Origin: Candidatus Poseidoniaceae archaeon
GTDB taxonomy: Archaea; Thermoplasmatota; Poseidoniia; Poseidoniales; Poseidoniaceae
Reading direction: 5' to 3'
DNA length: 64,000 nt
NCBI GenBank assembly: GCA_965659685.1
Contig: CBFHXB010000009.1
Location: 17,508 to 81,507, forward strand
The notes under the pieces were generated by a model, which worked only from the letters and a program-made list of their open reading frames with translations, did no database searches and was not told where the DNA came from. Positions 29,649 to 60,306 of the stretch are shown here, piece after piece. Numbering within the stretch: position 1 is the first letter of the stretch; each line of letters begins with the position of its first letter. The translations under genes were made by a program, and so were the position numbers.

Positions 29649-29963
29649 ATGGGCCAAGCCATGGTGGGCATCACCGACTCGGCCTGCACCGGGTGTGATC
29701 TCTGCATCCCCTTCTGTCCGTTCGAAGCCTTGCTTCCTCTGGCCGAGAACCCTGAGGGACGGAGCCATCCCAAACGTCCGGTGATCGTCGTTGAAGCCGC
29801 ATGCGTCGGCTGTTTGTCGTGCATTGGGTCCTGCCCGACCGGAGCCTTGCACGAGGTCCCGCTGCCGCCAAGCAACGAAACCTCTCCTCTGCTCGACCCT
29901 CCAGCACCTCCTGAAACAGAGCCTGTCCTCCGCTGGGGGCGCCGCGGAATCGGATGGGCCTGA
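29649..29963 (+). CDS. 2x[4Fe-4S] ferredoxin-like protein
   Basis: Carries two cluster motifs, CTGCDLCIPFCP and CVGCLSCIGSCP. The C-terminal tail is Pro-rich. Confidence 0.7.
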   Translation: MGQAMVGITDSACTGCDLCIPFCPFEALLPLAENPEGRSHPKRPVIVVEAACVGCLSCIGSCPTGALHEVPLPPSNETSPLLDPPAPPETEPVLRWGRRGIGWA

Positions 29964-29983
29964 AGCCTCAACCATTCCATTCG

Positions 29984-29991
29984 TTTATATA
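29984..29991 (+). promoter_or_regulatory. candidate archaeal TATA box for the Lhr gene
   Basis: tttatata at 29984-29991, 44 nt upstream of the ATG at 30035. It is one of very few A/T-only octamers in this GC-rich window. Confidence 0.4.
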
Positions 29992-30034
29992 CGTCACATC
30001 CACGAGGCCACGGCACGGGCGTCGTGAGAAAAAC

Positions 30035-35323: not shown

Positions 35324-35360
35324 CATCAAACCACATCAACCAACAGATTTGAAGAGGAGC

Positions 35361-35377
35361 CTTCCTTTCTTTTTCCC
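35361..35377 (+). terminator. pyrimidine/oligo-T tract, a possible archaeal terminator for lhr
   Basis: cttcctttctttttccc lies 38 nt after the lhr stop and directly abuts the next ATG. The assignment is tentative. Confidence 0.25.
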
Positions 35378-38300: not shown

Positions 38301-38914
38301 AGGAATTCTGGTACATTTGGGAGCAAGCCGAAGACGTGGATGCCATCACCGTCGATGACCTGAGTGGCGTGGTGTACGTCAACGGCATCGACCTTGAAGC
38401 CATGGACCGTGACAACGACGGCGACATCGGCTTTGCTGAAGCCGAACGGCACAGCCTCGCGTGCACCACCACCTACGACCCTCTGGACCTCGATGGCGAC
38501 GGAGTCCCCAACGAGGAGGACGCGTTCCCAGAAGACCCCAAGGAAAGCGAGGATTCCGATGGCGACGGTGTTGGCGACAACGCCGACTTGGTGGCAGGCG
38601 TCAACGATTCGGTGGTGACTTACGGCGCAGTCGTTGCGGTGCTTGGATTGATTGTGCTGCTCTTGCTCACCATGTTGCGTCGAGGACCGGGCGGATCTCA
38701 AGCGGTCGACCCCTGGGCCGACATGGGCGACGAGAAGCAAATGCCTGAGTTGTTTGGACCATCACAGATGGCGACAGAGCACGAACCAAGGCTTGGGATG
38801 AACCCGCTTCAGGAGGAAGAAATTCCACCACGAGAAACGGAAATCCCCAGCATGACGGATCTCCCACCGCCCCTCGAAGAGGCCATTCCAAGTGGCCCCT
38901 TGGAATGGCGCTGA
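35378..38914 (+). CDS. large secreted type-I membrane protein: C-type-lectin-like, LamG-like, PPC-like, EF-hand and TSP3-like repeats, then a TM helix and cytoplasmic tail
   Basis: Signal peptide: ALALVSLLVLSTTMAVVAPTAGA. CTLD signature: WTEAAQAA..GFLVTV..EN.WL..LWTGLSD..EGVFRWHDG..W..NQPS..EDYVHI..GDWNDLEND. LamG-like: LRFDGDDDHV...LTIEARI...FSGMIDDVSI. PPC-like: QYYVNVTEPLADLSVKTYGGEGNVDLAISYG and QYFSIDVPEGTERLEISLDDGTGEADLHLAYE. EF loops: DRDRDGIVTLDE (38159-38194) and DRDNDGDIGFAE (38405-38440). TSP3-like: DLDGDGVPNEEDAFPEDPKESEDSDGDGVGDNAD. TM helix: AVVAVLGLIVLLLLTML followed by RR, then about 80 aa of tail. Confidence 0.8.
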   Translation: MQHGSHRALALVSLLVLSTTMAVVAPTAGAESSLDIQVIDTKVNPANNHTYHLLSASSWTEAAQAARGLEGFLVTVDDEAENSWLHATWGNDGNVTRHLWTGLSDAGEEGVFRWHDGTPFLHRQWGENQPSMTDVEDYVHITGPNMGSIEPGDWNDLENDPQYFPVYGVVELGPGADFALRFDGDDDHVITSDDTSLQAPAASGELTIEARIQPVETDGIHTIVMYGDHGYGLYLDDGRLGYASEYSLSKNPLSDVNMTVPEGVWSTVAVAVNATTGGTFFLNGEAIGSFGADQAEIPAGDFGSNDCYEAGLSCENLVIGRHGAGADRYHFSGMIDDVSIAAIDARIAGPNGSIGLGPFTETLSEWTFGEGEGDQTYDHMNRTGAIEGAAWVMPDGSIVAQAMELENGDELNLDGISAGDTLLFFSELPEYTRSLSVQAFAWAENEGKEDGEAEFVLYHDVDRVPSAWSHMDEVEDWGWGGVFASYTWPEAGVHWFALQATSSLDEFSLWAEWEVAEAPPSLDEMIELKHGIPVADQDLQGQRENEFGESIQYYVNVTEPLADLSVKTYGGEGNVDLAISYGGPPDPFGIWGEWDIGFPSVSGDGDEVEFEDWSVGMGTEEEVHLYNLQPGTYYITAYTWRMARDYSIVADLTPLPTNAEASDAIELTPGVPYGPFSGYEGLNQYFSIDVPEGTERLEISLDDGTGEADLHLAYESTPTSTVFDERSVAPGPNDRVAFNDPTPGTWMILVHTDRVFSGTSILAEFTDRYVWDWDGEPIQLFNGESIEGIEAPEGTMLEFYGILERPVSPLEIDTWGESGEVELDVEAEPYDWETFFDDGPRGRQFDGESWMEGEGVEWTWSMNTAANGRFDVTVDVLEDVSGFGIVASWTESELPPVDDDDDDDAGNEEPFEPEGCLERTKAWFESLDRDRDGIVTLDEHRPHPSTGTPGQDLDLNEDERLQMGELEVDLCSCSEEFWYIWEQAEDVDAITVDDLSGVVYVNGIDLEAMDRDNDGDIGFAEAERHSLACTTTYDPLDLDGDGVPNEEDAFPEDPKESEDSDGDGVGDNADLVAGVNDSVVTYGAVVAVLGLIVLLLLTMLRRGPGGSQAVDPWADMGDEKQMPELFGPSQMATEHEPRLGMNPLQEEEIPPRETEIPSMTDLPPPLEEAIPSGPLEWR

Positions 38915-45548: not shown

Positions 45549-46271
45549 ATGCAACCCAGCGGACGAGGTTACGACCACGGAATCACCACCTTCAGCCCAG
45601 ACGGCCGACTCTTTCAGGTCGAATACGCCCGTGAATCCGTCAAGCGCGGCACCACCACGGCCGGTCTGAAGTTCCGCGACGGCGTGGTCCTGGTCTGCGA
45701 CAAGCGCATTGTTTCCCGCCTGATCATCCCCGAGTCCATCGAGAAGGTGTTCAAGGTCGACGAGCACGTTGGCGTCGCCACCTCAGGCCTTGTGGCCGAT
45801 GCTCGTCAATTGGTCGGACGCGCCCGCGTGGAAGCGCAAATCAACCGCATCACCTACGCCGACAGCATCCCTGTGGACGTTCTCGTGAAGAAAATCTGCG
45901 ACTTCAAGCAATCCTTCACCCAGTACGGTGGCTCCCGTCCCTTCGGCACCGCGCTCCTCATCGGTGGCGTGGACCCTGAGGGCATCCACCTCTACGAAAC
46001 GGACCCCTCCGGTGCCTACCAGAGCTACCACGCGGGTGCCATCGGCAGCGGCCGGAACACCGTCATCGAATTCTTTGAGCAGAAGTGGAAGGAGGGCCTG
46101 ACCCTCAACGCCGCGATGAAGCTCGGCCTGGAAGCATTGCAGCACGCCAACGACAGCAACCTGAACAGGGAGGCCGTCGAAGTTGCAACCATCACGGCAG
46201 AGGGCTACAACGTCCTCGACCGTGCGGCCGTGAACAAGCAGATCGACCGGCTCAAGCCCATCGACGAGTGA
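45549..46271 (+). CDS. psmA: proteasome alpha subunit
   Basis: Begins MQPSGRGYDHGITTFSPDGRLFQVEYARE. ATG at 45549 with ggagg 8 nt upstream. The upstream part of the track ORF is antisense to the Dph6 gene. Confidence 0.9.
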   Translation: MQPSGRGYDHGITTFSPDGRLFQVEYARESVKRGTTTAGLKFRDGVVLVCDKRIVSRLIIPESIEKVFKVDEHVGVATSGLVADARQLVGRARVEAQINRITYADSIPVDVLVKKICDFKQSFTQYGGSRPFGTALLIGGVDPEGIHLYETDPSGAYQSYHAGAIGSGRNTVIEFFEQKWKEGLTLNAAMKLGLEALQHANDSNLNREAVEVATITAEGYNVLDRAAVNKQIDRLKPIDE

Positions 46272-46285
46272 AGCGGTGACCGGCC

Positions 46286-46978
46286 ATGGTCTCCCTCGAT
46301 GACGCGGTGGTCGCGCGCTGGGAGTACGGTGGAAAACGGTACGAGGTGCTCCTCAGTCCCGAGTTGGTCGAAGCATTTCGCGAAGATCCTGATTCGGTCA
46401 GCCTCGATGACCTGATGGCCGTGGAGGACGTCTTTCACGACGCCCGCCAAGGTGAGCGGCCCACGGTGGACGATGTGGTGGCCACCTTCGGAACCGAAGA
46501 CATGGGCACCGTCACACGGACCATTCTCGAGCGCGGAAGCATCCAATTGACCACGGCTCAACGAAAGGCGCGGGTCGAGACCATGCGACAACGCATCATC
46601 CACCGCATTCACAGCGAAGCGGTCGACCCCCGTTCCAAGTCGCCTCATCCCAAGGCGCGTCTCGAACTTGCCCTCGAAGAAAGCCGCTTCTCCGTGGATC
46701 CGTTCAAACGACTCGAAGCCCAAGTCAAGGACGCCATTGCCGTGCTGAAACCGCTGATTCCCCTTTCTTTTGAGCGAATCAAATTGGCCTTCAAGGTCAG
46801 CGGTGCAGCGTACGGCCGTGCGCACCAGCTCCTTCGTGGAGACCTGCGGCGAGAGGAATGGCTTGGCGACGGCTCTTGGGTCGGTGTGGTGGACGTTCCT
46901 GCTGCAAGAAAAGCCGACCTCATCGGTGAAATCATGCGGCTAGACCGCGAAGCGGAAGTCAAAGAACTCCCATCGTAG
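46286..46978 (+). CDS. SBDS-family ribosome maturation protein
   Basis: 230 aa. Contains VVARWEYGGKRYEVLLSPELV and DVFHDARQGERP, with a three-domain SBDS-like layout. It sits directly after psmA, as in many archaea. Confidence 0.85.
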   Translation: MVSLDDAVVARWEYGGKRYEVLLSPELVEAFREDPDSVSLDDLMAVEDVFHDARQGERPTVDDVVATFGTEDMGTVTRTILERGSIQLTTAQRKARVETMRQRIIHRIHSEAVDPRSKSPHPKARLELALEESRFSVDPFKRLEAQVKDAIAVLKPLIPLSFERIKLAFKVSGAAYGRAHQLLRGDLRREEWLGDGSWVGVVDVPAARKADLIGEIMRLDREAEVKELPS

Positions 46979-46991
46979 GGAGGCAGGACGG

Positions 46992-47007
46992 TCAGGCCTT
47001 GGCCTGA
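46992..47007. terminator. GC-rich hairpin between convergent genes
   Basis: tcaggc-cttg-gcctga has a perfect 6-bp stem. A second inverted repeat, cgctgag...ctcagcg (47009-47036), follows. A function as a terminator is not established for archaea. Confidence 0.25.
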
Positions 47008-47030
47008 ACGCTGAGTCGCTGCGAAGAGCC

Positions 47031-48056
47031 TCAGCGGGAAGCGAGGGTGAGGTTCTTCCACATGTCCTCGGGGACTTCCATGGACAAACGCAGGCCACCC
47101 ATGGCGCCCAAGCGGACGGGGTCATCGACGACGTGAACGTTGACGTCACCCATGTCGGAGAGCCGGCGTTCGATCATCGCACCGAGGCCACGAATGCCAG
47201 AGCCGCCACCGGCCAGGACCATGTTGCGGCGGAATTCGTCGTGGAATTCTGGGTTCGAGCCCGCAATGAGCTTCTTGACGTTCTCAACGATGGGGTCAAC
47301 GATGGATTCGCATGCGCGCTGCACACAATCGGTGATGTCGAGGGTCATGGCTTTGCCTTCAATCGAGAAATCCACCATGATGGGGTCTTCAGGAGGGGAG
47401 GTGGAGACGAAGGAATGCTGTTCCTTCCAGCGGCGGGCCATGTCCTTGGTAACCTGAGCGCCGTTGTACTTGCCTTGGACTTCCTTGATGATCTGACCGT
47501 CGACGTAGTCGCCGGCGTATCCGGTGTGCATCTGGTCGCCAGGACCTGGGATGGTCCCATAGACGCGGCACAGGTCGGTGGTTCCCGCCCCGATGTCAAT
47601 GACGAGGGTGTGCTCGAGCATGTCGAGGGCGTAGGCCACCGCGAAGGGCTCGGAGATGATCATGGCCGCGTTGACGGAGCCTGCGGCTGCGTCGAAGATG
47701 GCGGTCTTGTCCACGTGGCTTGCTTCGGCCGGTGCGCCGATCACGGCGACAACACGGTCGTAGGTCTCAGGGTCGGAAAGTCCGATGAGGTGGGTGATGA
47801 AGTGAGCGATGTATTGCCGGTCTTCGGGCGTGTCTTTGATGACACCGAGTTCGAGGGGGCGATACAGGTTGAGGGCGAGTCGGTTCTTCAGGGCCTCTTC
47901 GCCAAACAGCACGTCGCGCTTCAGGAAATTGCGGGCAACAGGGTCTTTTGGCGTTCCAATGACGGTCAATTCTTCCACTTCGTGGGATGCAGAGGACACC
48001 ATGACGGAACGAAAGGTTCCGAGGTCGATTCCAATGTAAAGCGTCTCTTTGGCCAT
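47031..48056 (-). CDS. actin-fold ATPase (MreB/MamK/ParM-like cytoskeletal family)
   Basis: Has phosphate-1 LYIGIDLGTFRS, adenosine/phosphate-2 LVIDIGAGTTDL, and MVLAGGGSGIRGL. There is no Hsp70 substrate-binding domain. The start could instead be the ATG at 48089. Confidence 0.7.
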   Translation of the reverse strand: MAKETLYIGIDLGTFRSVMVSSASHEVEELTVIGTPKDPVARNFLKRDVLFGEEALKNRLALNLYRPLELGVIKDTPEDRQYIAHFITHLIGLSDPETYDRVVAVIGAPAEASHVDKTAIFDAAAGSVNAAMIISEPFAVAYALDMLEHTLVIDIGAGTTDLCRVYGTIPGPGDQMHTGYAGDYVDGQIIKEVQGKYNGAQVTKDMARRWKEQHSFVSTSPPEDPIMVDFSIEGKAMTLDITDCVQRACESIVDPIVENVKKLIAGSNPEFHDEFRRNMVLAGGGSGIRGLGAMIERRLSDMGDVNVHVVDDPVRLGAMGGLRLSMEVPEDMWKNLTLASR

Positions 48057-48107
48057 GGGCCAACGAGCGTGGTTTCGCTTATGAACCATCCCTTGGGCAA
48101 GTTGGGG

Positions 48108-49160
48108 TCAGCACCACGCATCACAGGTGTGGCAATACCATGCTGCATGCTCGGGGTAAAGTTCAGCCATGCCGGAGCAAGAGGTGCATTCTTTCTGAGC
48201 TTGGTCACCGAATATTTGCATCACGATGGACACGTGGTGATGGTCGTCGATGCCGAGTTGTTGTCGCATGGCCCAAAGCAGTTGATCCTCCGACGGTGAG
48301 ATGATGCCGTCCTCGAGCACCAGTTCAACGACGCTCCGGTAATCGTCGACCACCTGAATCTCGCGATGGTCAAGTCGAACGCCGCCCTTCTCAGCCACGA
48401 TGTCTTGACCGCCAGGGTCGTCCGCGAACACCACCAAGGAATTGGCCTTGAACGAGTCATCGCGGAGTTCCAGGTGAATGCTGCTCCCCTCAAGGTTGGC
48501 GTAAACCAAACGCGAATGACGGTTGATGGTGTTCGTGATCGACCGAGCCGTGTCCTCCTTTGTTCGTCCTCGACGCCATCCAGTCGGGCTGGATTCGTTG
48601 TAGGCGTAGAACTCGGTCCCGTATCCCGGATATTCCAAGCGCAGTTCCTCACCGCCGTCAAAATCGTTGGTCAGAATGTGGAAAGCTGCGATCCTTGTCG
48701 AGAGCAAATTGTCGTCGTCGTCGAAGCTGATCATCAGTGGTTTGCGTTCTTCGGCTGCTGCGTTGAACTGCCCTTGCATGCCGCTCATCCATTTGTCTTC
48801 GAGGCGCTTCAGGCTCGCTTCTTGTTCCCCAGAGAGCCCTGTCTCAATCCCGAGCATGCCGCGGAGTTCACCCGATTGGAGGTCTTGCTTGAACTGGTCG
48901 ATCAACTCAGTGTTGTAGTGGTGATCGTCACGTACAGGACCTGAATTTGAGTCAACGTGGTTGGGGTCTGCCCACTCGTATCGACACTTCGAACACGCCA
49001 AGTATCCGGTCAAGGTCGACGGCTGTGCGTCTCCACCACAGCGTGGGCAATCGCCCTCCTCGTTCACGGCCAAGTTGTCTGCGGCTTCGCGACGTCCTCG
49101 GCGGGGATTGAATCCAGCCATACCCCCCGAGGGACCGAGCCCGGACTTCAAGGTGTTCAT
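48108..49160 (-). CDS. hypothetical protein with N- and C-terminal zinc ribbons and a TerB-like helical segment
   Basis: 350 aa. Ribbons are CPRCGG...CSKCRYEW and CTSCSG...CHTCDAWC. VLEDGIISPSEDQLLWAMRQQLGI resembles TerB/DjlA-N-type helices. The start overlaps the upstream stop by 4 nt (ATGA). Confidence 0.5.
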   Translation of the reverse strand: MNTLKSGLGPSGGMAGFNPRRGRREAADNLAVNEEGDCPRCGGDAQPSTLTGYLACSKCRYEWADPNHVDSNSGPVRDDHHYNTELIDQFKQDLQSGELRGMLGIETGLSGEQEASLKRLEDKWMSGMQGQFNAAAEERKPLMISFDDDDNLLSTRIAAFHILTNDFDGGEELRLEYPGYGTEFYAYNESSPTGWRRGRTKEDTARSITNTINRHSRLVYANLEGSSIHLELRDDSFKANSLVVFADDPGGQDIVAEKGGVRLDHREIQVVDDYRSVVELVLEDGIISPSEDQLLWAMRQQLGIDDHHHVSIVMQIFGDQAQKECTSCSGMAELYPEHAAWYCHTCDAWC

Positions 49161-49981
49161 GCCGAAGGCGAAACGGCCTTTCTCCCATACCGAAGGACCC
49201 CGTCTTGGGCGTAGACACGTCGCACGACCAAACCCATCGTGTCATCGATGGCGACCTGACTTGGGAGTCCATCGACATGAAGGAAGACGCCCGAAGGGCC
49301 TTGGTCAAAGGCGAGGATCATGGACGTCAACCCACCGAGAAATGGCGCTCGAATCGCGAATTCCGACGGGCAACCCGCTGCGATCAGTTTCGTCCATGAC
49401 ACGACTCGGGCCGTCGTGGTCAGCAACGGACCTTGGGCCGGGGCAGACCCGTCCGACGTCGCCCCCCGGGGTGGCCACATGGGACCGGCCTGTGCTCGCA
49501 TGCCCAAACGGGCTTCCATGCCAAGGTCGTGGACTTGACCAGAAACGTAGGCGCCTTGAGAGACGTTGGTTTCCTTCATTTCACGGTTCCACGCATCGTG
49601 AATGGCCGTGTGGTCGTCAAGGTCCATGTCGATGCGCAGATTCGGGTCCACCGAAACCGCATGAGCGTCGAAATCATGGTTTCGTGGAAGGACGGCTGCG
49701 CCGTGTTTCATGCGGTGAAGGACAGCATCTGCATCGTCGTCGATTTGGAGCCATGGAAGGCTTGCCTGGACCACAGGGAGTTCGTGGTCGTTCAACGGAA
49801 CCGCCACAGACGTGCCGTGCCCCTTTCGATGCCATGCCTCAAGGGCGTCGATGATCATCGTCACGACGTCTTCATCGGGACCAAACACGCGACGTTCGTT
49901 AACGTGGAAACGGGACGCCGCCACGACCCCTTCGTCCAAATGATGCACAGCAACACCAAATTCACCGGCGGCAAGGATCAT
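49157..49981 (-). CDS. DUF35-type OB-fold protein (thiolase/HMGCS-associated family) with an atypical N-terminal domain
   Basis: The C-terminal segment TARVVSWTKLIAAGCPSEFAIRAPFLGGLTSMILAFDQGPSGVFLHVDG...IDDTMGLVVRRV fits the DUF35 OB pattern. The usual Zn ribbon is absent. The N-terminal VNERRVFGPDEDVVTMIIDALEAW is reminiscent of an HMG-CoA synthase N-terminus. There is an ATGA overlap with the thiolase stop. Confidence 0.45.
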   Translation of the reverse strand: MILAAGEFGVAVHHLDEGVVAASRFHVNERRVFGPDEDVVTMIIDALEAWHRKGHGTSVAVPLNDHELPVVQASLPWLQIDDDADAVLHRMKHGAAVLPRNHDFDAHAVSVDPNLRIDMDLDDHTAIHDAWNREMKETNVSQGAYVSGQVHDLGMEARLGMRAQAGPMWPPRGATSDGSAPAQGPLLTTTARVVSWTKLIAAGCPSEFAIRAPFLGGLTSMILAFDQGPSGVFLHVDGLPSQVAIDDTMGLVVRRVYAQDGVLRYGRKAVSPSA

Positions 49982-51147
49982 TCCAACGACCTCCCGAAGA
50001 CATGGACGGCACACGTGGCGCCCGAGCCACCGACGTTGTGCGTCAAGCCAACTTCGGCATCACGAACTTGACGTGGGCCGGCTTCGCCTCGGAGTTGCTT
50101 GAACACCTCGACCGCCTGACCCGCCCCGGTGGCGCCCAACGGATGCCCCTTGGCCTTCAGACCACCAGAGCCGTTGACCGTGGTTCGCCCTTCGTTCCGA
50201 CGGCCCTCACCGTCCCGAGCAAAGCGGCCGCCGTGCCCCGTTGGGGTGAGACCAAGGTCTTCTGTGGCCAACAGCTCAGCGACGGTAAAACAGTCGTGAA
50301 CCTCTGCCAAATCGAGGTCGGTGGCGGACAAACCGGATTGGGTGTAGGCCTGGGATGCCGCGGAGCGTGTGGCGGCCAGCGTGGTCAAGCTCGGACGATC
50401 GTGGAGCGCAAGATGGTCTGCAGCCGCACCGCTCCCTCGCATCCACACCGGAGTGTCCGTCAGGCGCCGTGCAACGTCTGCAGATGCAAGCACGACGCAC
50501 GCCGCACCGTCGGAGGTCGGGCAGCAATCGTAGAGGGTCAATGGGTCGGCGATCACCGTGCCTCCTGCCGCTTTCTCGAAGGACACGTCCTTCCTAAGGT
50601 GCGCATGAGGGTTCTCAAGCGCATGTGCGTGGTTCTTGACGCTGATGTGCACCAGGTCATCGTGCGTGGAGCCGTGTTCGTGCATGTGACGGCGCGCCAT
50701 GAGGGCGTAGGTTCCAGGGAAGGTCAAGCCGGCCAAGCGCTCCCATTCGGTGTCGCCCGAAACGCCAAGCCAGAAGCGCTTCCGTTCGGGCGTCAGGTCG
50801 TTCATCTTCTCAACCCCTCCAACCACGACCACGTCGGCACGGCCGCTCGCAATGGCCGCCCATCCGTCACGCAGGGCAAATCCGGAGGACGCGCACGCGT
50901 TTTCGATGCGACGTGCGGGGACCCCTGCCATGCCGGCGTGCTCTGCCAAGTAAGCAGCCGTGTTCCCAAGTTGCCCACCGCCAAAGGCCGTTGAGCCAAG
51001 GAAAACCTCGTCCACAGTGGATGGCGCAAGGTCACCGTCGATCGAGGAAAAACAGGACCTCACGGCTTCGGCCCACATGTCCTTCAGGGCACCCGGGTGG
51101 TTGCCGTAGGGCGTTTGACCCGCGCCGACCATGGCGACATCGACCAT
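49978..51147 (-). CDS. acetyl-CoA C-acetyltransferase (archaeal thiolase)
   Basis: 389 aa. Contains the active-site region RIENACASSGFAL, VHDCFTVAEL and NGSGGLKAKGHPLGATG. Confidence 0.9.
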   Translation of the reverse strand: MVDVAMVGAGQTPYGNHPGALKDMWAEAVRSCFSSIDGDLAPSTVDEVFLGSTAFGGGQLGNTAAYLAEHAGMAGVPARRIENACASSGFALRDGWAAIASGRADVVVVGGVEKMNDLTPERKRFWLGVSGDTEWERLAGLTFPGTYALMARRHMHEHGSTHDDLVHISVKNHAHALENPHAHLRKDVSFEKAAGGTVIADPLTLYDCCPTSDGAACVVLASADVARRLTDTPVWMRGSGAAADHLALHDRPSLTTLAATRSAASQAYTQSGLSATDLDLAEVHDCFTVAELLATEDLGLTPTGHGGRFARDGEGRRNEGRTTVNGSGGLKAKGHPLGATGAGQAVEVFKQLRGEAGPRQVRDAEVGLTHNVGGSGATCAVHVFGRSLE

Positions 51148-51230
51148 GTGTGTCCATCCACCCCCAGCACTTGACCATCACGGTAGCGCGGGCCGATGAT
51201 GCTATGAACCATGCGCGGGGGGGGGAAATC

Positions 51231-51914
51231 ATGCTGCGTCAGTGTCGAGAGCACGGTCATTTCAGCGGGACCAACTGCCCCGTTTGCAACGAAGAAGGGA
51301 AATTCATCATGTCCGACCGCGAAGCCAACGCCGTTGGCCGTATCCTCGCGCTCGTGTTGCGTCACGCTCCAGAGAAGTTCAACGTGGACATGGACATCAA
51401 CGGCTGGGTCGAAACCCGCGAATTGTCCAAGTCCATTGCGGACAGCCGCCGCCACCTCCACTGGGTCCGTGCATGGCACTTCGAAGCCATCGCAAACGCC
51501 GACGAAAAGGGCCGTTGGCAAGTTGAGAACGAGATGATCCGGGCCACCTACGGCCATTCCATCGAAATCGAACTCGACCTTCCCACCGACGACATCCCCG
51601 ATGCATTGTACTGGCCGTGTGAAGCGACCGAAGTTGAATCCTTGCTCAAGTTTGGTATCCTCTCCGGTGACCGCAAGCACATCCACTTGTCCCGCACGAT
51701 TGGCAACGCGCTCGAGGCCGGCCACGTTCGCATCAACCGACCCTCCGTCATTGAAGTGGACACCATCCGTGCCATCACCGACGGACACACGATTTACCGT
51801 GCAGGCACCACCGTCTTCCTGACCGAAGAAGTGCCTCCCTCGGCCTTGTTCCCGGTTGGAGAGGACGATCCAATCGTCCAGGAAACCTTCGCCCGGTGGG
51901 ACGAAGAAGAGTGA
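51231..51914 (+). CDS. kptA: RNA 2'-phosphotransferase (Tpt1/KptA) with an N-terminal Cys/His knuckle
   Basis: Contains ILALVLRHAPEKFNVDMDINGWV, HIHLSRT and VFLTEEVPPSAL. The N-terminus is CREHGHFSGTNCPVC. An alternative ATG lies at 51204. Confidence 0.75.
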   Translation: MLRQCREHGHFSGTNCPVCNEEGKFIMSDREANAVGRILALVLRHAPEKFNVDMDINGWVETRELSKSIADSRRHLHWVRAWHFEAIANADEKGRWQVENEMIRATYGHSIEIELDLPTDDIPDALYWPCEATEVESLLKFGILSGDRKHIHLSRTIGNALEAGHVRINRPSVIEVDTIRAITDGHTIYRAGTTVFLTEEVPPSALFPVGEDDPIVQETFARWDEEE

Positions 51915-52241
51915 TCACCGCGAACCGCAGGCTGGACAGAAGTCCAGCTCAGGGTCCAACAGGGCTCCGCATGATTCGCACACGCCTGCAGCCAGCGTGG
52001 ACATCGTTTCCCTGACTTCCGATTCAACGGTGCGTTGTTGGGGGCGAACCGAGACCGTCGGGTCCAGGCCCAAGCGAATCCGTTCGTCATGAACGGCGAC
52101 AAATCGCATGGCTTCCTGCAGGGCCGCCTGCAGCTGACGGCGACGCTGCTCGCGCTCAACGGCATCCGCAATGGTGTCCGTGGCTTCGAGTTCCGCCTGA
52201 AGATGGCGCATCAACACGTTGACCGTTGCTTCGTCGCCCAT
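51915..52241 (-). CDS. small coiled-coil protein with a C-terminal zinc ribbon
   Basis: CESCGALLDPELDFCPACG at the C-terminus. The start is uncertain, with ATG candidates at 52271, 52241 and 52211. Confidence 0.35.
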   Translation of the reverse strand: MGDEATVNVLMRHLQAELEATDTIADAVEREQRRRQLQAALQEAMRFVAVHDERIRLGLDPTVSVRPQQRTVESEVRETMSTLAAGVCESCGALLDPELDFCPACGSR

Positions 52242-52315
52242 GAAAGGACTTGGACAGCGGTCCGTCTTCAATCCTCGCGAGGCACCCTCATGAAGCGACG
52301 CTCCGTGGACCCACC

Positions 52316-53131
52316 ATGAGGCGCGCCGTGGTCGTCAAACTCGGCGGAGGCCTCATCACCGACAAAACGCGCCTGACCACCCTCCGACCCGACCTGCTGG
52401 GACGCTTGGCACAGGAGCTCGCCTCCGCGGTCGCTGCTGGTGTGGACGTGCTCGTGGTTCACGGTGCGGGTTCCTTCGGGCATCTTCGGGCCAAAGCATG
52501 GTCCCTTGCAAACGGCAAGTCCGACGTCCAAGGCGACGACGGATGCGCGAGCCAAGAGGAGGCGGTCAACTTGGTCCGGGAGGACATGATCACACTGTCT
52601 GAGCACGTCTGCGGAGCCTTGCAGCGGGCCGGACTGACCACCAACGCTCATCCACCCCATCGTTGGGCGATGGGCGTTGGCCCGTCGTTCGAGGGCGACA
52701 TTCTGCCGCTCCGGCCCTCATCGAATGTCCCGGTGACGTGGGGCGATGTGGTTCCCGTTCCAGGAGAGGCCGCGTTTGGCATCCTCTCCGGGGATGACCT
52801 CGTCCACCGATGTGCGGTTGAACTGCCGAACGTCACCCGTGTGGTGTTCGCCATGGGCGGCGCGGACGGTGTCCTTCGTCGGCCTCCAGACGTCGCCACG
52901 GAGGCAGACCTGATCACCGAGTGGAACGACGACGCGTCCTTCGAAGGACATCACGCGAACGAGATGGACGTGACCGGAGGCATTGGACTCAAGGTCGAAC
53001 GGGCACGTAGCATTGCCTCGCACGGCATCGAAACGCTGTTTGTCAACGGCGAGGTTCCTGGTCGGCTTGAGGCGGCCCTGACGGGACAGCCCGTCCGTGG
53101 AACCCGTTTTCCATCCGAGCAGAAGGGATGA
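52316..53131 (+). CDS. ipk: isopentenyl phosphate kinase
   Basis: Begins MRRAVVVKLGGGLITDK. Contains VVHGAGSFGH and the amino-acid-kinase fold pattern. The stop overlaps the next start (ATGA at 53128-53131). Confidence 0.8.
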   Translation: MRRAVVVKLGGGLITDKTRLTTLRPDLLGRLAQELASAVAAGVDVLVVHGAGSFGHLRAKAWSLANGKSDVQGDDGCASQEEAVNLVREDMITLSEHVCGALQRAGLTTNAHPPHRWAMGVGPSFEGDILPLRPSSNVPVTWGDVVPVPGEAAFGILSGDDLVHRCAVELPNVTRVVFAMGGADGVLRRPPDVATEADLITEWNDDASFEGHHANEMDVTGGIGLKVERARSIASHGIETLFVNGEVPGRLEAALTGQPVRGTRFPSEQKG

Positions 53132-54885
53132 AGTGTCGAAGGCCACACCGAACGTCCATGGCTTCCGCCATGAGAACCGACGTCGCTGCTGAGGACGCGG
53201 AAGTCCTCGATGGGTTGGACGCCGAACAAGTGGACATGATGGCCGAGGCCGTCATTTTGGTCGACGAACACGACAACCCGCTTGGAAGGACCTCAAAGGT
53301 GAACGCGCACCGTCATGCGGGCGCCTATCACCGGGCCTTCTCCGTGATGCTCTTCGATGAGGAGAACCGCTTGCTTCTGCAGCGCAGGGCCGACGACAAG
53401 ATCACCTTCCCAGGGATTTGGGCCAACACCTGTTGTTCCCACCCCCTCGACGTCCCCGAGGAGCGTGAGGAAGAGGACGGAAGGGGCGTTCGACGTGCAG
53501 CGGTTCGCAAACTCAAGCAGGAACTTGGCATCGACGGGATGAGCACGGACGATCTGACCTATGTCGGTCGATTCCGATACCAAGCCCGCCAAGACGAGAC
53601 CTGGATTGAGCGGGAGGTCGACCACCTGCTCATCGGCCGTGTGACCGACCTCAGCCTCGAACCGAACCCCAATGAAGTGGCAGAAGTACGTTGGGTCAGC
53701 CAAGACGACCTTGAGGACATGCTCATTGAGGAATCACCTGACCACCCGATCGCTCCGTGGTTCCGTTGCATTGCAGCACGCTTGATGACCGATGCGTGGT
53801 GGAACGCCCGAACCAAGGAAGACATCGCCGCATTGCGTGACGATCACATCCACGACCTCGGGGACGTCAGCCACATGCTACCCGGTGCCATTGGAGCCGA
53901 CCTGCCGACTTCGGTGATGGAAGTCCTCCCGCTCATCGAATCCCGCATCGCCGCTCGACTGACCGCGTCGAGGCATCCCCGCTTGGGTCAGGCGATGATG
54001 CACCTCATCGAAGGTGGGGGCAAGCGCATGCGAGCTTCGCTCCCGTGGTTGGTTGCCAAAGCCATTGGCGACTCCCACAGCGGGTTGCTCGACGTCGGGG
54101 CCGCCATCGAAATCATCCACAACTTCACCCTCGTCCATGACGATATCATGGACGATGATCCAGTTCGTCGAGGACGACCCGCCGTGCACGTGGCCTACGA
54201 CGTACCGACGGCGATCAACGCTGGCGACGCCATGCTCGCCATCGCGTTCGAACACCTTTGCGATGCACCCGCGTTCGACATGAGTCTCCTGCCGGAGATT
54301 GTTGAGCGCATCGCATGGATGGTGCGACGTGTCTCTGAAGGCCAGCAACTTGACATCGAATTCGAGCACGACAGCAACGTCACCGAACCGAGGTACCTCG
54401 AGATGATCGAAGGGAAAACGGCCGTGATGTTCCAAGTGTGCTCAGAATTGGGTGCGTTGCTTTCCGGAGCCGACGAAGCGACCGTGGATTGCATGCGAGA
54501 GTGGGGCCTCAACGTTGGCCTCTGCTTCCAGTTGATGGACGACCTGATCGACGTCGTGTCCGACACGGCGACCCTGGGCAAACCCGCAGGCTCCGATGTC
54601 GCACAAGGCAAGCGGACCCTCATGGTCATCCACGCCCTCGACCAAGCAGACGGCCCTGCAAAGGACGCTTTGCTGCGGGCTCTGGGCAAGGGCGAGGAAG
54701 CGACCTCTGAGGACATTGAGGCCGCCCATGCAGGCCTCGAATCCTCTGGCTCCATCGCGTATGGGCGAGAACGCGCAACGGCGTACCACGCTGCAGCGCA
54801 TGCGTGCCTCGACCGGCTGCCCAACAGCCCCGCGCTTCGCGCGCTCCGCGAATTCACGGACCTTCAATTGGCCCGTCTTTCCTGA
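53128..54885 (+). CDS. fusion protein: type-1 isopentenyl-diphosphate isomerase (Nudix fold) plus geranylgeranyl/polyprenyl diphosphate synthase
   Basis: N-terminal half: HRAFSVMLF, FPGIWANTCCSHPL, RAAVRKLKQELGI. C-terminal half: first Asp-rich motif LVHDDIMDDDPVRRGRP and second Asp-rich motif FQLMDDLIDV. Confidence 0.85.
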   Translation: MKCRRPHRTSMASAMRTDVAAEDAEVLDGLDAEQVDMMAEAVILVDEHDNPLGRTSKVNAHRHAGAYHRAFSVMLFDEENRLLLQRRADDKITFPGIWANTCCSHPLDVPEEREEEDGRGVRRAAVRKLKQELGIDGMSTDDLTYVGRFRYQARQDETWIEREVDHLLIGRVTDLSLEPNPNEVAEVRWVSQDDLEDMLIEESPDHPIAPWFRCIAARLMTDAWWNARTKEDIAALRDDHIHDLGDVSHMLPGAIGADLPTSVMEVLPLIESRIAARLTASRHPRLGQAMMHLIEGGGKRMRASLPWLVAKAIGDSHSGLLDVGAAIEIIHNFTLVHDDIMDDDPVRRGRPAVHVAYDVPTAINAGDAMLAIAFEHLCDAPAFDMSLLPEIVERIAWMVRRVSEGQQLDIEFEHDSNVTEPRYLEMIEGKTAVMFQVCSELGALLSGADEATVDCMREWGLNVGLCFQLMDDLIDVVSDTATLGKPAGSDVAQGKRTLMVIHALDQADGPAKDALLRALGKGEEATSEDIEAAHAGLESSGSIAYGRERATAYHAAAHACLDRLPNSPALRALREFTDLQLARLS

Positions 54886-59028: not shown

Positions 59029-60306
59029 ATGGCGTTCAGAGACCACCTCGATGCGGCCGTCACCGTGGCCGAACCGGTCAGCCTTGTGCACGGCCTTTGG
59101 CGCTGGTCGTACGCCAACGGCGGCGCCATGGCGATCTTCGAATCGCTGGTGGAGTCCCCAGGGCACAGGGCCGCGGTCAACATGCTCACGCGGGACCGCT
59201 TGTGTGCCGCCATCGGCATCGAACCCGAAGCCTACATCGACACCCTTGGTTGGGCGATGGCGAACCCCCAAACGCCGGTGATGGTCCCCGAATCGGAAGC
59301 GGAGGTCTTCCAAGTCCGTCGAGAGCAACCCGAACTCAGCACCTTGCCCATTCCCCACCACTGGCCGGAGGACGCGGGCAGGTACATGTCCGCGTCCGTG
59401 ATCGTGGCCGATGATGGTGAGCGGCGCAACATCAGTTTCCACCGCCAGTTGTTGAGGGACGACGACCACCTTGTGGTTCGGCTCGTTCCCCGGCACCTTC
59501 GCACGATGGTGGACGAGGCACGCGCCAAAGGCCGAGACGTCGACATCGCCATCGTGAACGCACCGGACCCTGTCGTCTTGCTCGCCGCTGCCTCAACCTT
59601 CTCGGAGTTCCTTGACGAAATGACCGTGGCCGCGGCTCTTCACGAGCGGCTCTACGAACGACCCCTACGGACAACGACCGCACCGAACGGCGTGGTCATC
59701 CCCGCGGATGCGGAATACGTGATGTGGGGACGCATCACGCAAGAGGACGATTCGGAAGGCCCCTACGTGGACATCACCGGCACCGTGGACGACGTCCGGC
59801 AACAACCCGTCATCCACGTCGAAGGGGTCTGCCACCGTGAGCACCCCATTTTCCACGCTCTGATTCCAGGAGAGGCAGAACACAAGACGCTGATGGGGTT
59901 GCCACGCGCACCGACGATCAAGGCCGCCGTGAATCAGGTCGTCACCTGTTTGGACGTCCACATGTCCGACGGCGGATGCGGTTGGCTTGCCAGCGTCATC
60001 AAGATTCGACGTGAACACGAGGACGACCCACGAAAGGCCATCGACGCCGCGTTCCGAGGTCATCCTTCAATGAAGTCGGTGACCGTGGTGGACGAGGACA
60101 TCGACATCACCGACCCAAATGCGGTGGAATGGGCGATGATGACCCGTTGGCAGCCAGACCGAGACACCGTCATCTTCCGCGACCAGCGTGGTTCATCCCT
60201 CGATCCTTCACGGTACGACGACGGAAGGACGTCCAAGGTTGGCTTCGACGCCACCGTGCCGTGGGGAGCAGAACGAAGCGCATTCTCAACGGTGCAACGA
60301 CCCTGA
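59029..60306 (+). CDS. UbiD-family (prenyl-FMN-dependent) decarboxylase
   Basis: 425 aa. Shows UbiD-like segments (RNISFHRQLL, LVVRLVPRHL, YVDITG, HPIFHALIPG) and gggggg 3 nt before the ATG. The substrate cannot be assigned by eye. Confidence 0.75.
   Translation: MAFRDHLDAAVTVAEPVSLVHGLWRWSYANGGAMAIFESLVESPGHRAAVNMLTRDRLCAAIGIEPEAYIDTLGWAMANPQTPVMVPESEAEVFQVRREQPELSTLPIPHHWPEDAGRYMSASVIVADDGERRNISFHRQLLRDDDHLVVRLVPRHLRTMVDEARAKGRDVDIAIVNAPDPVVLLAAASTFSEFLDEMTVAAALHERLYERPLRTTTAPNGVVIPADAEYVMWGRITQEDDSEGPYVDITGTVDDVRQQPVIHVEGVCHREHPIFHALIPGEAEHKTLMGLPRAPTIKAAVNQVVTCLDVHMSDGGCGWLASVIKIRREHEDDPRKAIDAAFRGHPSMKSVTVVDEDIDITDPNAVEWAMMTRWQPDRDTVIFRDQRGSSLDPSRYDDGRTSKVGFDATVPWGAERSAFSTVQRP

What the first reader, a model, noticed from the sequence alone, without database searches (positions are those of the whole stretch)
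47031..51147. Operon joining thiolase, a DUF35-like protein, a double-Zn-ribbon protein and an actin-fold ATPase
Seen in the sequence: four consecutive minus-strand genes.
- Thiolase, 49978-51147.
- A 274-aa ORF, 49157-49981.
- A 350-aa ORF, 48108-49160.
- An actin-fold ATPase, 47031-48056.

The first two junctions are 4-nt ATGA start/stop overlaps (tcat at 49978-49981 and at 49157-49160). The third junction is a gap of 18-51 nt, depending on the start chosen.

Established knowledge: in archaea, thiolase and a DUF35 scaffold normally team with HMG-CoA synthase for the first mevalonate-pathway steps.

Here no HMGCS gene is present. Instead the coupled genes lead into a Zn-ribbon/TerB-like protein and an MreB/MamK/ParM-like filament-type ATPase (DLGT, DIGAGTTD and GGGSGIRGL motifs).

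Inference: this could be a lipid-synthesis module physically or regulatorily tied to a cytoskeletal filament and its adaptor. It could also be merely compact gene packing. I am not aware of this gene combination being described.
Basis: partly seen in the sequence, partly recalled or inferred. Interest (0 to 1): 0.7.

Follow-up and report, generated by a model that had tools for sequence, protein, structure and literature searches.

The report
Thiolase pair beside archaeal actin pair
The four genes are real, but they look like two neighbouring two-gene units in a marine archaeon: a mevalonate-type thiolase with an unusual helper protein, and a very conserved MamK-type actin with a partner protein found only in this lineage, rather than one operon linking lipid synthesis to a cytoskeleton.

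Summary
The window comes from a Marine Group II (Poseidoniales) genome assembled from a metagenome. All four minus-strand genes exist where stated.

- **Gene 1** is an archaeal acetoacetyl-CoA thiolase of the type that pairs with DUF35.
- **Gene 2** is a DUF35 protein that has lost its zinc-binding cysteines and gained an N-terminal domain of about 135 aa with unknown fold.
- **Gene 3** has two 4-Cys zinc ribbons around a core with no structural neighbour. The TerB guess is not supported. Its real start is probably 49121 (337 aa).
- **Gene 4** is a MamK-family actin (39% identical to solved MamK, ATPase residues kept). It is as conserved as EF-2 across the order.

The four-gene order holds in 76 of 79 MGIIa loci, but so does the surrounding ten-gene housekeeping order.

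The zinc-ribbon gene and the actin gene are adjacent wherever both are seen. The thiolase side varies:
- Three MGIIa loci have the actin pair moved away.
- MGIIb-type loci lack the DUF35 gene, and carry a non-orthologous bacterial-type thiolase or none.

TATA-like boxes sit about 30–40 nt upstream of genes 3 and 4.

Verdict: two modules held together by synteny. The actin plus zinc-ribbon pair appears undescribed and is moderately interesting. The lipid–cytoskeleton link remains weakly possible.

The parts
49978..51147 (-). Archaeal SCP-x-type acetoacetyl-CoA thiolase (389 aa)
   Evidence: NF004720 scores 433.8 bits against a cutoff of 420. Pfam Thiolase_C_1 and Thiolase_N match. PDB matches are 7yvy at 270 bits and 6esq_A at 264 bits, full length; 6esq_A is the thiolase of the thiolase/HMGCS/DUF35 complex.
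49157..49981 (-). DUF35-like protein (274 aa). It overlaps the thiolase stop by 4 nt. Residues ~1-135 form a novel alpha/beta domain. Residues ~140-270 are a DUF35 unit (N-helix, Cys-less 'WPPR' ribbon remnant, OB fold).
   Evidence: AlphaFold model has pLDDT 89.6. Foldseek hits DUF35 chains 6esq_G (4e-5), PhlB 5m3k_B, BbsA 7pyt and ChsH2 6ok1. The family profile hits 6esq_E at E=0.007. PF01796 matches 18 of 25 family members, though not this member itself. No Cys is conserved in alignment A1. Homologues seen here come only from Poseidoniales-type sources.
48108..49121 (-). Poseidoniales-specific double zinc-ribbon protein ('Zn350'; probably 337 aa from ATG 49121, with an alternative 350-aa start at 49160). 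The N-terminal ribbon is encoded at about 48984-49049 and the C-terminal ribbon at about 48123-48188.
   Evidence: Eight invariant Cys: C38, C41, C56, C59, C325, C328, C343, C346. 276 homologues; the 120 listed are 61-79% identical, and every organism name given is Poseidoniales, Thermoplasmatota or Euryarchaeota. Model pLDDT is 69 overall and about 85 for residues 155-350. No Foldseek hit in PDB at E<1e-3. Only weak Zn-ribbon Pfam hits. The protein is acidic, pI 4.7.
47031..48056 (-). MamK-family actin-like ATPase (341 aa from ATG 48056; the NCBI 352-aa call starts at 48089)
   Evidence: NCBIfam scores: MamK 355.7, BeeR 206.8, MreB 91 bits. PDB scores: MamK 5ljw 253, BeeR 8r2n 153, MreB about 56 bits. 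39% identity to MamK over 334 aligned positions. The equivalents of MamK E143 and D161 are conserved (alignment). Most homologues are 341 aa.
48078..48085 (-). TATA-like box TTCATAAG, 29 nt upstream of the actin ATG at 48056. It lies inside the 352-aa ORF called by NCBI.
   Evidence: TT[CG]ATAA is found 25-44 nt upstream of the conserved ATG in 77 of 85 loci. The stricter pattern TT[CG]A[TA][AG][AG] hits 72 of 80 loci, against 6% of random 32-nt windows. Flanking spacer sequence is not conserved between clades. Function is inferred, not measured.
49145..49151 (-). Degenerate TATA-like box TTGAAGT, 30 nt upstream of the Zn350 ATG at 49121
   Evidence: Other clades carry TTCATAG or TTGATAG at -30 in 63 of 81 loci. 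The window's own version does not match the strict pattern. Function is inferred.
51167..51176 (-). Conserved box (GGTCAAGTGC; ATCAA[AG]TGC in other clades) about 27-33 nt upstream of the thiolase ATG, in the divergent spacer shared with the KptA gene
   Evidence: Seen in the upstream sequences anchored at the ATG for sampled MGIIa clades. A promoter role is inferred.

Best explanation
Two adjacent but separable modules sit in a deeply syntenic housekeeping region of the Poseidoniales chromosome.

**Module A (thiolase + DUF35-like, translationally coupled).** This makes acetoacetyl-CoA for the mevalonate pathway. The neighbouring IPK and IDI-GGPPS genes belong to the same pathway. The DUF35 protein is a lineage-specific scaffold variant: its ribbon cysteines are lost and it carries an extra N-terminal domain. 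HMGCS is encoded elsewhere.

**Module B (double Zn-ribbon protein + MamK-family actin).** The actin hydrolyses ATP and polymerises into MamK-type filaments. The acidic Zn-ribbon protein is its dedicated partner, acting as an adaptor, anchor or regulator. In this role it is comparable to MamJ, ParR or arcadin, without being homologous to any of them. The filament's cargo or role (cell shape or internal positioning) is unknown.

Each Module B gene has its own TATA-like box, so they are probably transcribed separately from Module A. The adjacency of A and B is inherited synteny.

**Shown:** the gene identities, the conservation patterns, the rearrangements and the boxes.
**Inferred:** polymerisation, partnership between the two Module B proteins, promoter function and the pathway role.
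For: - Identities.
- Zn350 and the actin gene are adjacent on the same strand in every locus where both are present: 72 GTDB loci (in L056 the actin hit is only partial) plus 13 further loci.
- The pair is relocated and inverted as a unit, away from thiolase-DUF35L, in L043, L055 and L063.
- MGIIb-type loci have no DUF35L. They carry a classical thiolase that is 22-24% identical to the window's (L083-L092), or no thiolase at all (L082, L093, L094).
- The ten-gene order from EF-2 to the actin gene is identical in 47 of 49 loci, so the synteny is generic.
- Thiolase-DUF35L spacing is mostly -8 to +17 nt. Median spacers are 43 nt before Zn350 and 123 nt before the actin gene.
- TATA-like boxes are found in 63 of 81 loci (Zn350) and 72 of 80 loci (actin), against a 6% background. 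Some clades also have an SD-like GGTGAG just before the actin ATG.
- Oligo-T runs follow the Zn350 stop in 14 of 79 loci. They follow the thiolase stop in 0 of 76.
- Median identity to the window in distant MGIIa loci: actin 89%, EF-2 88%, thiolase 73%, Zn350 65%, DUF35L 37%.
- MamK-like genes outside Poseidoniales (ANME-2, KSB1) have no thiolase or Zn350 neighbour.
Against: - A thiolase of either type lies directly upstream, in the same orientation, in most loci of both families. In L087-L089 the block KptA-thiolase-Zn350-actin inverted as a unit. This persistence through a non-orthologous replacement could reflect selection for the linkage.
- No transcript data exist. The boxes are inferred, and the window's Zn350 box is degenerate.
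- Read-through from DUF35L into Zn350 is not excluded: oligo-T follows DUF35L in only 3 of 77 loci.
- Polymerisation and Zn350-actin binding are untested.
- Whether Poseidoniales have an HMGCS at all was not established, so the mevalonate role of Module A rests on homology and on the neighbouring genes.
Confidence: 0.62

Rival explanations
1. The four genes form one functional unit in which a filament and its adaptor organise or regulate the first enzymes of isoprenoid lipid synthesis.
For: Four-gene colinearity holds in 76 of 79 MGIIa loci. A thiolase stays immediately upstream of Zn350-actin in MGIIb-type loci even though it is a different, non-orthologous thiolase. The block moves together in L087-L089. 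Isoprenoid genes IPK and IDI-GGPPS lie nearby.
Against: The whole ten-gene neighbourhood is equally colinear. The pair separates from thiolase-DUF35L in L043, L055 and L063. There is no thiolase at all in L082, L093 and L094. Promoter-like boxes precede Zn350 and the actin gene. The proteins evolve at very different rates. MamK relatives in other lineages have no thiolase neighbour.
Confidence: 0.08
2. Zn350 plus the actin is a chromosomal DNA-segregation machine of the ParMRC type. Zn350 would be the DNA-binding adaptor, through its zinc ribbons, and a nearby site would act as centromere.
For: It is a two-gene actin-plus-partner layout. The ribbons resemble the L37ae and IS1595-transposase types. 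The palindrome TCTATAGA lies in the Zn350-actin spacer in 43 of 86 loci. There is a weak PHROG 'partition protein' hit for the actin, 28 bits.
Against: The actin is far closer to MamK than to ParM: no ParM chain is hit in PDB at E<=1e-3. Zn350 is acidic, pI 4.7, with no basic segment. There are no repeat arrays around the genes in the window. The palindrome is absent from the window.
Confidence: 0.1
3. Thiolase and DUF35L do not serve the mevalonate pathway. They would act in other acyl-CoA chemistry, such as lipid or sterol-like side-chain thiolysis or an acyltransferase of the PhlABC or BbsAB type.
For: There is no HMGCS within 10 kb in any locus. DUF35L is highly divergent, has no ribbon cysteines and carries an extra domain. 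The DUF35 fold also matches PhlB, BbsA and ChsH2. The equivalog model for the methanogen thiolase is not reached: 395 bits against a cutoff of 600.
Against: The best solved relatives of the thiolase are acetoacetyl-CoA thiolases, including 6esq_A. IPK and IDI-GGPPS are syntenic neighbours. MGIIb-type loci fill the same slot with a classical thiolase of the Thiolase_N + Thiolase_C architecture.
Confidence: 0.15

Closest known systems
MamK (magnetosome actin) with its acidic partner MamJ
   Same: The alignment to solved MamK is full length (5ljw, 253 bits, 39% identity) and the ATPase residues are kept. MamK is the best NCBIfam family. The partner protein is acidic and encoded next to the actin gene.
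   Different: The score is below the curated MamK cutoff: 355.7 against 400. No magnetosome genes were seen among the neighbours examined, and the context is housekeeping. Zn350 is not homologous to MamJ or to anything known. Closer relatives (42-49% identity) include named proteins from KSB1, ANME-2, Nitrospira, Gemmatimonadota and Acidobacteriota MAGs.
Thiolase/HMG-CoA synthase/DUF35 complex of archaea (PDB 6ESQ/6ET9)
   Same: The thiolase matches 6esq_A at 264 bits. The C-terminal half of the 274-aa protein has the DUF35 fold of 6esq_E/G. The two genes are translationally coupled.
   Different: There is no HMGCS gene in the window or within 10 kb in 94 loci. The DUF35 ribbon cysteines are lost. 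An extra N-terminal domain of about 135 aa has no detectable relative.
Actin-plus-adaptor pairs: ParM/ParR, Alp7A/Alp7R, crenactin/arcadin
   Same: An actin-fold ATPase is encoded next to a lineage-specific partner, and the two genes are always kept together.
   Different: The pair is chromosomal, found across the order and as conserved as EF-2. The partner is a 337-aa acidic double zinc-ribbon protein. There is no centromere-like repeat array. ParM, crenactin and Ta0583 are not hit in PDB at E<=1e-3.
Salactin and volactin (haloarchaeal actins)
   Same: These are archaeal actin-fold proteins related to MamK and MreB. The Pfam Salactin model hits at 51 bits. The Salactin paper places MamK as Salactin's nearest family (PMC10746226).
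   Different: The match is much weaker than to MamK: NCBIfam salactin 59 bits against 355.7 for MamK.

Membership tests
MamK family actin-like protein (NCBIfam NF040964) | HMM score at or above the curated cutoff (400 bits) | tested here: not met
   The score is 355.7 bits. MamK is still the best family by a wide margin (BeeR 206.8, MreB 91).
MamK family actin-like protein (NCBIfam NF040964) | End-to-end similarity to solved MamK, with the ATP-binding and hydrolysis motifs kept | tested here: met
   The match to 5ljw_A is 253 bits, covering residues 12-347 against 7-341, at 39% identity. The equivalents of MamK E143 and D161, and the DLGT, DIGAGTTD and GGGS motifs, are conserved.
MamK family actin-like protein (NCBIfam NF040964) | Location in a magnetosome gene cluster | tested here: not met
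   Neighbours are thiolase, KptA, IPK, IDI-GGPPS, EF-2, SBDS and a proteasome subunit. No magnetosome family was seen among the neighbours examined.
MamK family actin-like protein (NCBIfam NF040964) | ATP-dependent polymerisation into filaments | not testable with these tools
   This needs biochemistry or imaging.
DUF35 (OB-fold plus zinc-ribbon partner of SCP-x-type thiolases) | C-terminal OB-fold domain (PF01796) | tested here: met
   The window protein itself has no Pfam hit at E<=0.1. However, 18 of 25 family members hit PF01796, the family profile hits 6esq_E at E=0.007, and the model matches 6esq_G at 4e-5.
DUF35 (OB-fold plus zinc-ribbon partner of SCP-x-type thiolases) | Four-cysteine zinc ribbon before the OB fold | tested here: not met
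   No cysteine is among the invariant or near-invariant columns of the 25-sequence alignment. Only the 'WPPR' stretch of the ribbon region is kept.
DUF35 (OB-fold plus zinc-ribbon partner of SCP-x-type thiolases) | Encoded next to an SCP-x-type thiolase | tested here: met
   There is a 4-nt overlap with the thiolase in the window. The two genes are adjacent in all MGIIa loci examined.
Archaeal thiolase/HMGCS/DUF35 gene cluster | HMG-CoA synthase gene in the same cluster | tested here: not met
   phmmer with S. aureus MvaS found no ORF at E<=10 in the window or in 94 loci. The query was verified against 1xpk (724 bits) and it detects archaeal 6esq_I at 99 bits.
Archaeal acetoacetyl-CoA thiolase | Curated HMM cutoffs | tested here: inconclusive
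   The subfamily model NF004720 is met (433.8 against 420). The equivalog NF053570 is not met (395 against 600).
   There is no TerB hit in Pfam at E<=0.1. There is no Foldseek PDB hit at E<1e-3.
ParMRC-type (type II) partition system | Small DNA-binding adaptor plus a centromere repeat array next to the actin gene | tested here: not met
   Zn350 is 337 aa and acidic, pI 4.7. There are no repeat arrays in 46000-52000. DNA binding itself is untested.
Single operon (one transcription unit of four genes) | No internal promoters or terminators, and inseparable gene order | tested here: not met
   Conserved TATA-like boxes precede Zn350 and the actin gene. The order is broken in 3 MGIIa loci and in all 13 MGIIb-type loci. 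Transcripts themselves were not measured.

The most novel reading that the evidence does not exclude
The persistent placement of a thiolase directly upstream of the Zn-ribbon/actin pair is selected, not accidental. The thiolase is the archaeal type with DUF35L in MGIIa and a non-orthologous bacterial type in MGIIb. On this reading the MamK-like filament and its Zn-ribbon adaptor would position or scaffold the entry enzymes of isoprenoid (or other acetoacetyl-CoA-derived) lipid synthesis. That would be a cytoskeleton-organised metabolic module in an abundant marine archaeon.
Probability: 0.08. Interest if true: 0.8.

Novelty: new variant of a known kind. Interest (0 to 1): 0.45.

Why it matters
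Poseidoniales (Marine Group II) are among the most abundant archaea in the surface ocean and have never been cultured. Almost nothing is known of their cell biology.

An actin homologue that is as conserved as EF-2 across the whole order is a concrete handle on their cytoskeleton. It is always paired with a protein that has no known relatives. It is currently labelled 'rod shape-determining protein' or 'hypothetical' in databases.

The cysteine-less DUF35 variant with an added domain raises a second question. So does the swap of thiolase type between the two families. Together they ask how these archaea, whose lipid biosynthesis is debated, start the mevalonate pathway.

Tried and rejected
- **HMGCS remnant idea.** The motif FGPDSDxTT..A..ALE in the N-terminal domain of the 274-aa protein recalled the HMGCS N-terminus (from memory). 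The family profile hits no HMGCS chain in PDB at E<=10. Foldseek lists none. phmmer with a verified MvaS sequence does not hit it. Not supported.
- **TerB-like domain in the 350-aa protein.** No Pfam or Foldseek support.
- **Rosetta-stone test.** The N-terminal extensions of KSB1-type MamK fusions and the 1940-aa neighbour of the ANME-2 homologue were compared with Zn350 and DUF35L. No similarity at E<=10.
- **Phage or defence origin.** PHROGs and PADLOC gave only marginal hits.
- **Known RNA elements.** No Rfam match in the window at gathering thresholds.
- **parC-like repeats.** None found.
- **Literature.** Four searches found no description of an MGII/Poseidoniales MamK-like actin. Two searches on MGII/Poseidoniales and the mevalonate pathway or HMGCS found nothing useful.
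- **Third homology search.** It was saturated by Poseidoniales sequences, so it gave no outgroup information.
- **Sigma-70 promoter scan.** Not used, because the organism is an archaeon.
- **Phylogenetic tree.** None was built. Classification rests on HMM and PDB scores.

Full report
**Source and observation.** The actin-like protein is found exactly on NCBI contig NHGQ02000013.1 of assembly GCA_002170075.2. Its relatives are all Poseidoniales (Marine Group II) metagenome-assembled genomes. The four minus-strand ORFs are at the stated coordinates. TCAT is present at 49978-49981 and at 49157-49160. The third junction is 18 or 51 nt, depending on whether ATG 48089 or ATG 48056 is used.

**Gene 1, 49978-51147.** This is an archaeal SCP-x-type thiolase.
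- NF004720 scores 433.8 bits against a cutoff of 420.
- The best solved relatives are acetyl-CoA acetyltransferases 7yvy (270 bits) and 6esq_A (264 bits). 6esq_A is the thiolase of the thiolase/HMGCS/DUF35 complex.

**Gene 2, 49157-49981.** This gene has no Pfam or NCBIfam hit of its own.
- Its homologues form a family seen here only in Poseidoniales-type sources.
- 18 of 25 members hit PF01796. The family profile hits the DUF35 chain 6esq_E at E=0.007.
- A confident model (pLDDT 89.6) matches DUF35 proteins through its C-terminal half: 6esq_G at 4e-5, PhlB, BbsA and ChsH2.
- The alignment has no conserved cysteine, so the zinc ribbon is degenerate and only 'WPPR' survives.
- The first ~135 residues form a well-predicted alpha/beta domain with no sequence or listed structural relative.
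- The 'DUF35-like' label is therefore right, but this is an unusual variant.

**Gene 3, 48108-49160.** Eight invariant cysteines form an N-terminal and a C-terminal CxxC...CxxC ribbon.
- The 276 homologues are Poseidoniales-type. Most are 336-338 aa and begin at the equivalent of Met14. NCBI also aa.
- The likely start is therefore ATG 49121, and the second ATGA overlap is probably incidental.
- The model is moderate overall (pLDDT 69) but about 85 for residues 155-350. It has no Foldseek hit in PDB below E=1e-3.
- Pfam gives only weak ribbon hits. 'TerB-like' is not supported.
- The protein is acidic, pI 4.7.

**Gene 4, 47031-48056.** This is a MamK-family actin.
- NCBIfam scores: MamK 355.7 bits (cutoff 400), BeeR 206.8, MreB 91, salactin 59.
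- PDB scores: MamK 5ljw 253 bits end to end, BeeR 153, MreB about 56. There are no ParM, crenactin or Ta0583 hits at E<=1e-3.
- Identity to MamK is 39% over 334 positions. The equivalents of MamK E143 and D161 are kept.
- Most homologues are 341 aa, which supports ATG 48056.
- Outside Poseidoniales, the nearest representatives are 42-49% identical.
  - Many are proteins of about 500-1200 aa with low-complexity or coiled-coil N-terminal extensions; two of these are named as KSB1 bacteria.
  - The rest are ~350-aa proteins; those with names come from ANME-2/Methanosarcinales, Nitrospira, Gemmatimonadota and Acidobacteriota.
- An ANME-2 locus and a KSB1 locus show no thiolase or Zn-ribbon neighbour.

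**Gene order in MGIIa.** A scan of one genome per GTDB species returned 80 loci, nearly all labelled Poseidoniaceae, Poseidonia, Poseidoniales or with broader archaeal names (one carries a bacterial genus label).
- tblastn shows DUF35L followed by the Zn-ribbon gene in 76 loci. They are separated in 3 (L043, L055, L063), and one locus is uninformative.
- This conservation is not specific to the four genes. The ten-gene order EF-2, MOSC, IDI-GGPPS, IPK, DUF7575, KptA, thiolase, DUF35L, Zn-ribbon, actin is identical in 47 of 49 loci that hold all ten.
- In the three exceptions the Zn-ribbon/actin pair has moved as an inverted unit to a position between DUF7575 and KptA. Thiolase-DUF35L stays behind.

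**Gene order in MGIIb-type loci.** Thirteen further loci were reached through more divergent actin homologues (76-81% identity). One of these MAGs is labelled Thalassarchaeaceae.
- All keep the Zn-ribbon/actin pair and none has DUF35L.
- Ten carry a classical thiolase (Thiolase_N + Thiolase_C) in the same slot. Where compared by tblastn it is only 22-24% identical to the window's enzyme.
- Three carry no thiolase.
- The invariant unit is therefore Zn-ribbon + actin. The thiolase side is variable.

**Transcription signals (inferred).**
- A TT[CG]ATA[AG]-type box lies 30 nt upstream of the conserved Zn-ribbon ATG in 63 of 81 loci. It lies 29-40 nt upstream of the actin ATG in 72 of 80 loci. Random 32-nt windows contain it 6% of the time.
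- Surrounding spacer sequence is not conserved between clades. Several clades have an SD-like GGTGAG just before the actin ATG.
- In the window the actin box is TTCATAAG at 48078-48085. That is inside the NCBI 352-aa ORF and 29 nt before ATG 48056, the spacing expected for a leaderless archaeal mRNA (established knowledge: the TATA box is centred about 26 nt upstream of the start site).
- The window's Zn-ribbon box (TTGAAGT, 49145-49151) is a degenerate version.
- The thiolase has a different conserved box in the divergent spacer it shares with KptA.
- No box was found before DUF35L, which overlaps or closely follows the thiolase (typical spacings -8 to +17 nt; median 14).
- T5+ runs follow the Zn-ribbon stop in 14 of 79 loci, the thiolase stop in 0 of 76 and the DUF35L stop in 3 of 77. 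Background is 4.4%.
- Together this suggests three units: thiolase-DUF35L, then the Zn-ribbon gene, then the actin gene. Read-through cannot be excluded.

**Evolutionary rates.** Median identity to the window in distant MGIIa loci is: actin 89%, EF-2 88%, thiolase 73%, Zn-ribbon 65%, DUF35L 37%. In MGIIb-type loci it is: EF-2 81%, actin 79%, Zn-ribbon 57%. The actin is under constraint comparable to a core translation factor.

**HMGCS.** A recalled S. aureus MvaS sequence was verified against 1xpk (724 bits), and it detects the archaeal HMGCS 6esq_I at 99 bits. Used with phmmer, it finds no ORF at E<=10 in the window or in 94 loci. Pfam on 24 window ORFs also shows none. Whether Poseidoniales encode HMGCS elsewhere could not be checked.

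**Interpretation.** The best reading (confidence about 0.6) is two modules joined by inherited synteny.
- The first is a thiolase with a variant DUF35 scaffold, feeding the mevalonate pathway, next to IPK and IDI-GGPPS.
- The second is a MamK-type filament system with a new, lineage-specific, acidic double zinc-ribbon partner.
- A ParMRC-like segregation role is possible. It is weakened by the acidic partner and by the absence of repeat arrays.

**Novelty.** Searches of the held literature found no description of this actin or its partner in MGII. Databases label the actin 'rod shape-determining protein'. I rate it a new variant of a known kind (actin-like filament plus dedicated partner), of moderate interest.

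Noticed in passing
window 52313-54885 (+): Isopentenyl phosphate kinase (AA_kinase) and a 585-aa fusion of a NUDIX domain (annotated here as IDI) with a polyprenyl synthase (annotated here as GGPPS) overlap by 4 nt (ATGA at 53128-53131). They stay next to the thiolase slot across Poseidoniales.
   Followed up: partly
L083-L092, between the KptA and Zn-ribbon genes (e.g. L085 7680-8822): MGIIb-type loci hold a classical bacterial-type thiolase (Thiolase_N + Thiolase_C) exactly where MGIIa has the archaeal thiolase plus DUF35L. By tblastn it is 22-24% identical to the window enzyme in the loci compared (L083-L086). This looks like a non-orthologous replacement in the same position.
   Followed up: partly
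Zn-ribbon-to-actin spacer of 43 of 86 related loci (e.g. L034, L053); absent from the window: The palindrome TCTATAGA (often TTCTATAGAA) sits about 100 nt upstream of the actin ATG. It accounts for 43 of the 71 occurrences in 1.43 Mb of loci. It could be a regulator site, an alternative TATA box or a termination signal.
   Followed up: partly
window 49577-49981 (-): The N-terminal ~135-aa domain of the DUF35-like protein is predicted with high confidence and has invariant S23, D36, D38 and T41. It has no detectable relative in PDB by sequence or in the listed fold matches.
   Followed up: partly
window ~48708-48809 (-), residues ~118-151 of the 350-aa ORF: The stretch RLEDKWMSGMQGxFNAAxEERKPLMISFDDDDN is almost invariant across the order but is predicted disordered (pLDDT below 50). 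It is a candidate linear docking motif for the actin.
   Followed up: no
L095 7103-12925: The ANME-2 MamK-like gene is followed by a 1940-aa ORF with no Pfam hit. Many of the closest non-Poseidoniales relatives (P0162-P0176; two named as KSB1 bacteria) fuse low-complexity or coiled-coil N-terminal regions of roughly 190-900 aa to the MamK domain.
   Followed up: partly
window 4781-7742 (-) and 59029-60306 (+): Two ORFs hit menaquinone-biosynthesis families (VitK2_biosynth; radical SAM + CofH/MqnC C-terminal region), which I read as futalosine-pathway genes. A UbiD-family decarboxylase is also present in the window.
   Followed up: no
L082 1025-2170, L085 288-1448, L087 12708-13095: A fatty-acid desaturase gene lies beside the EF-2 gene in MGIIb-type loci.
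   Followed up: no
window 29954-38914 (+): Two very large ORFs (1789 and 1178 aa) were not examined.
   Followed up: no
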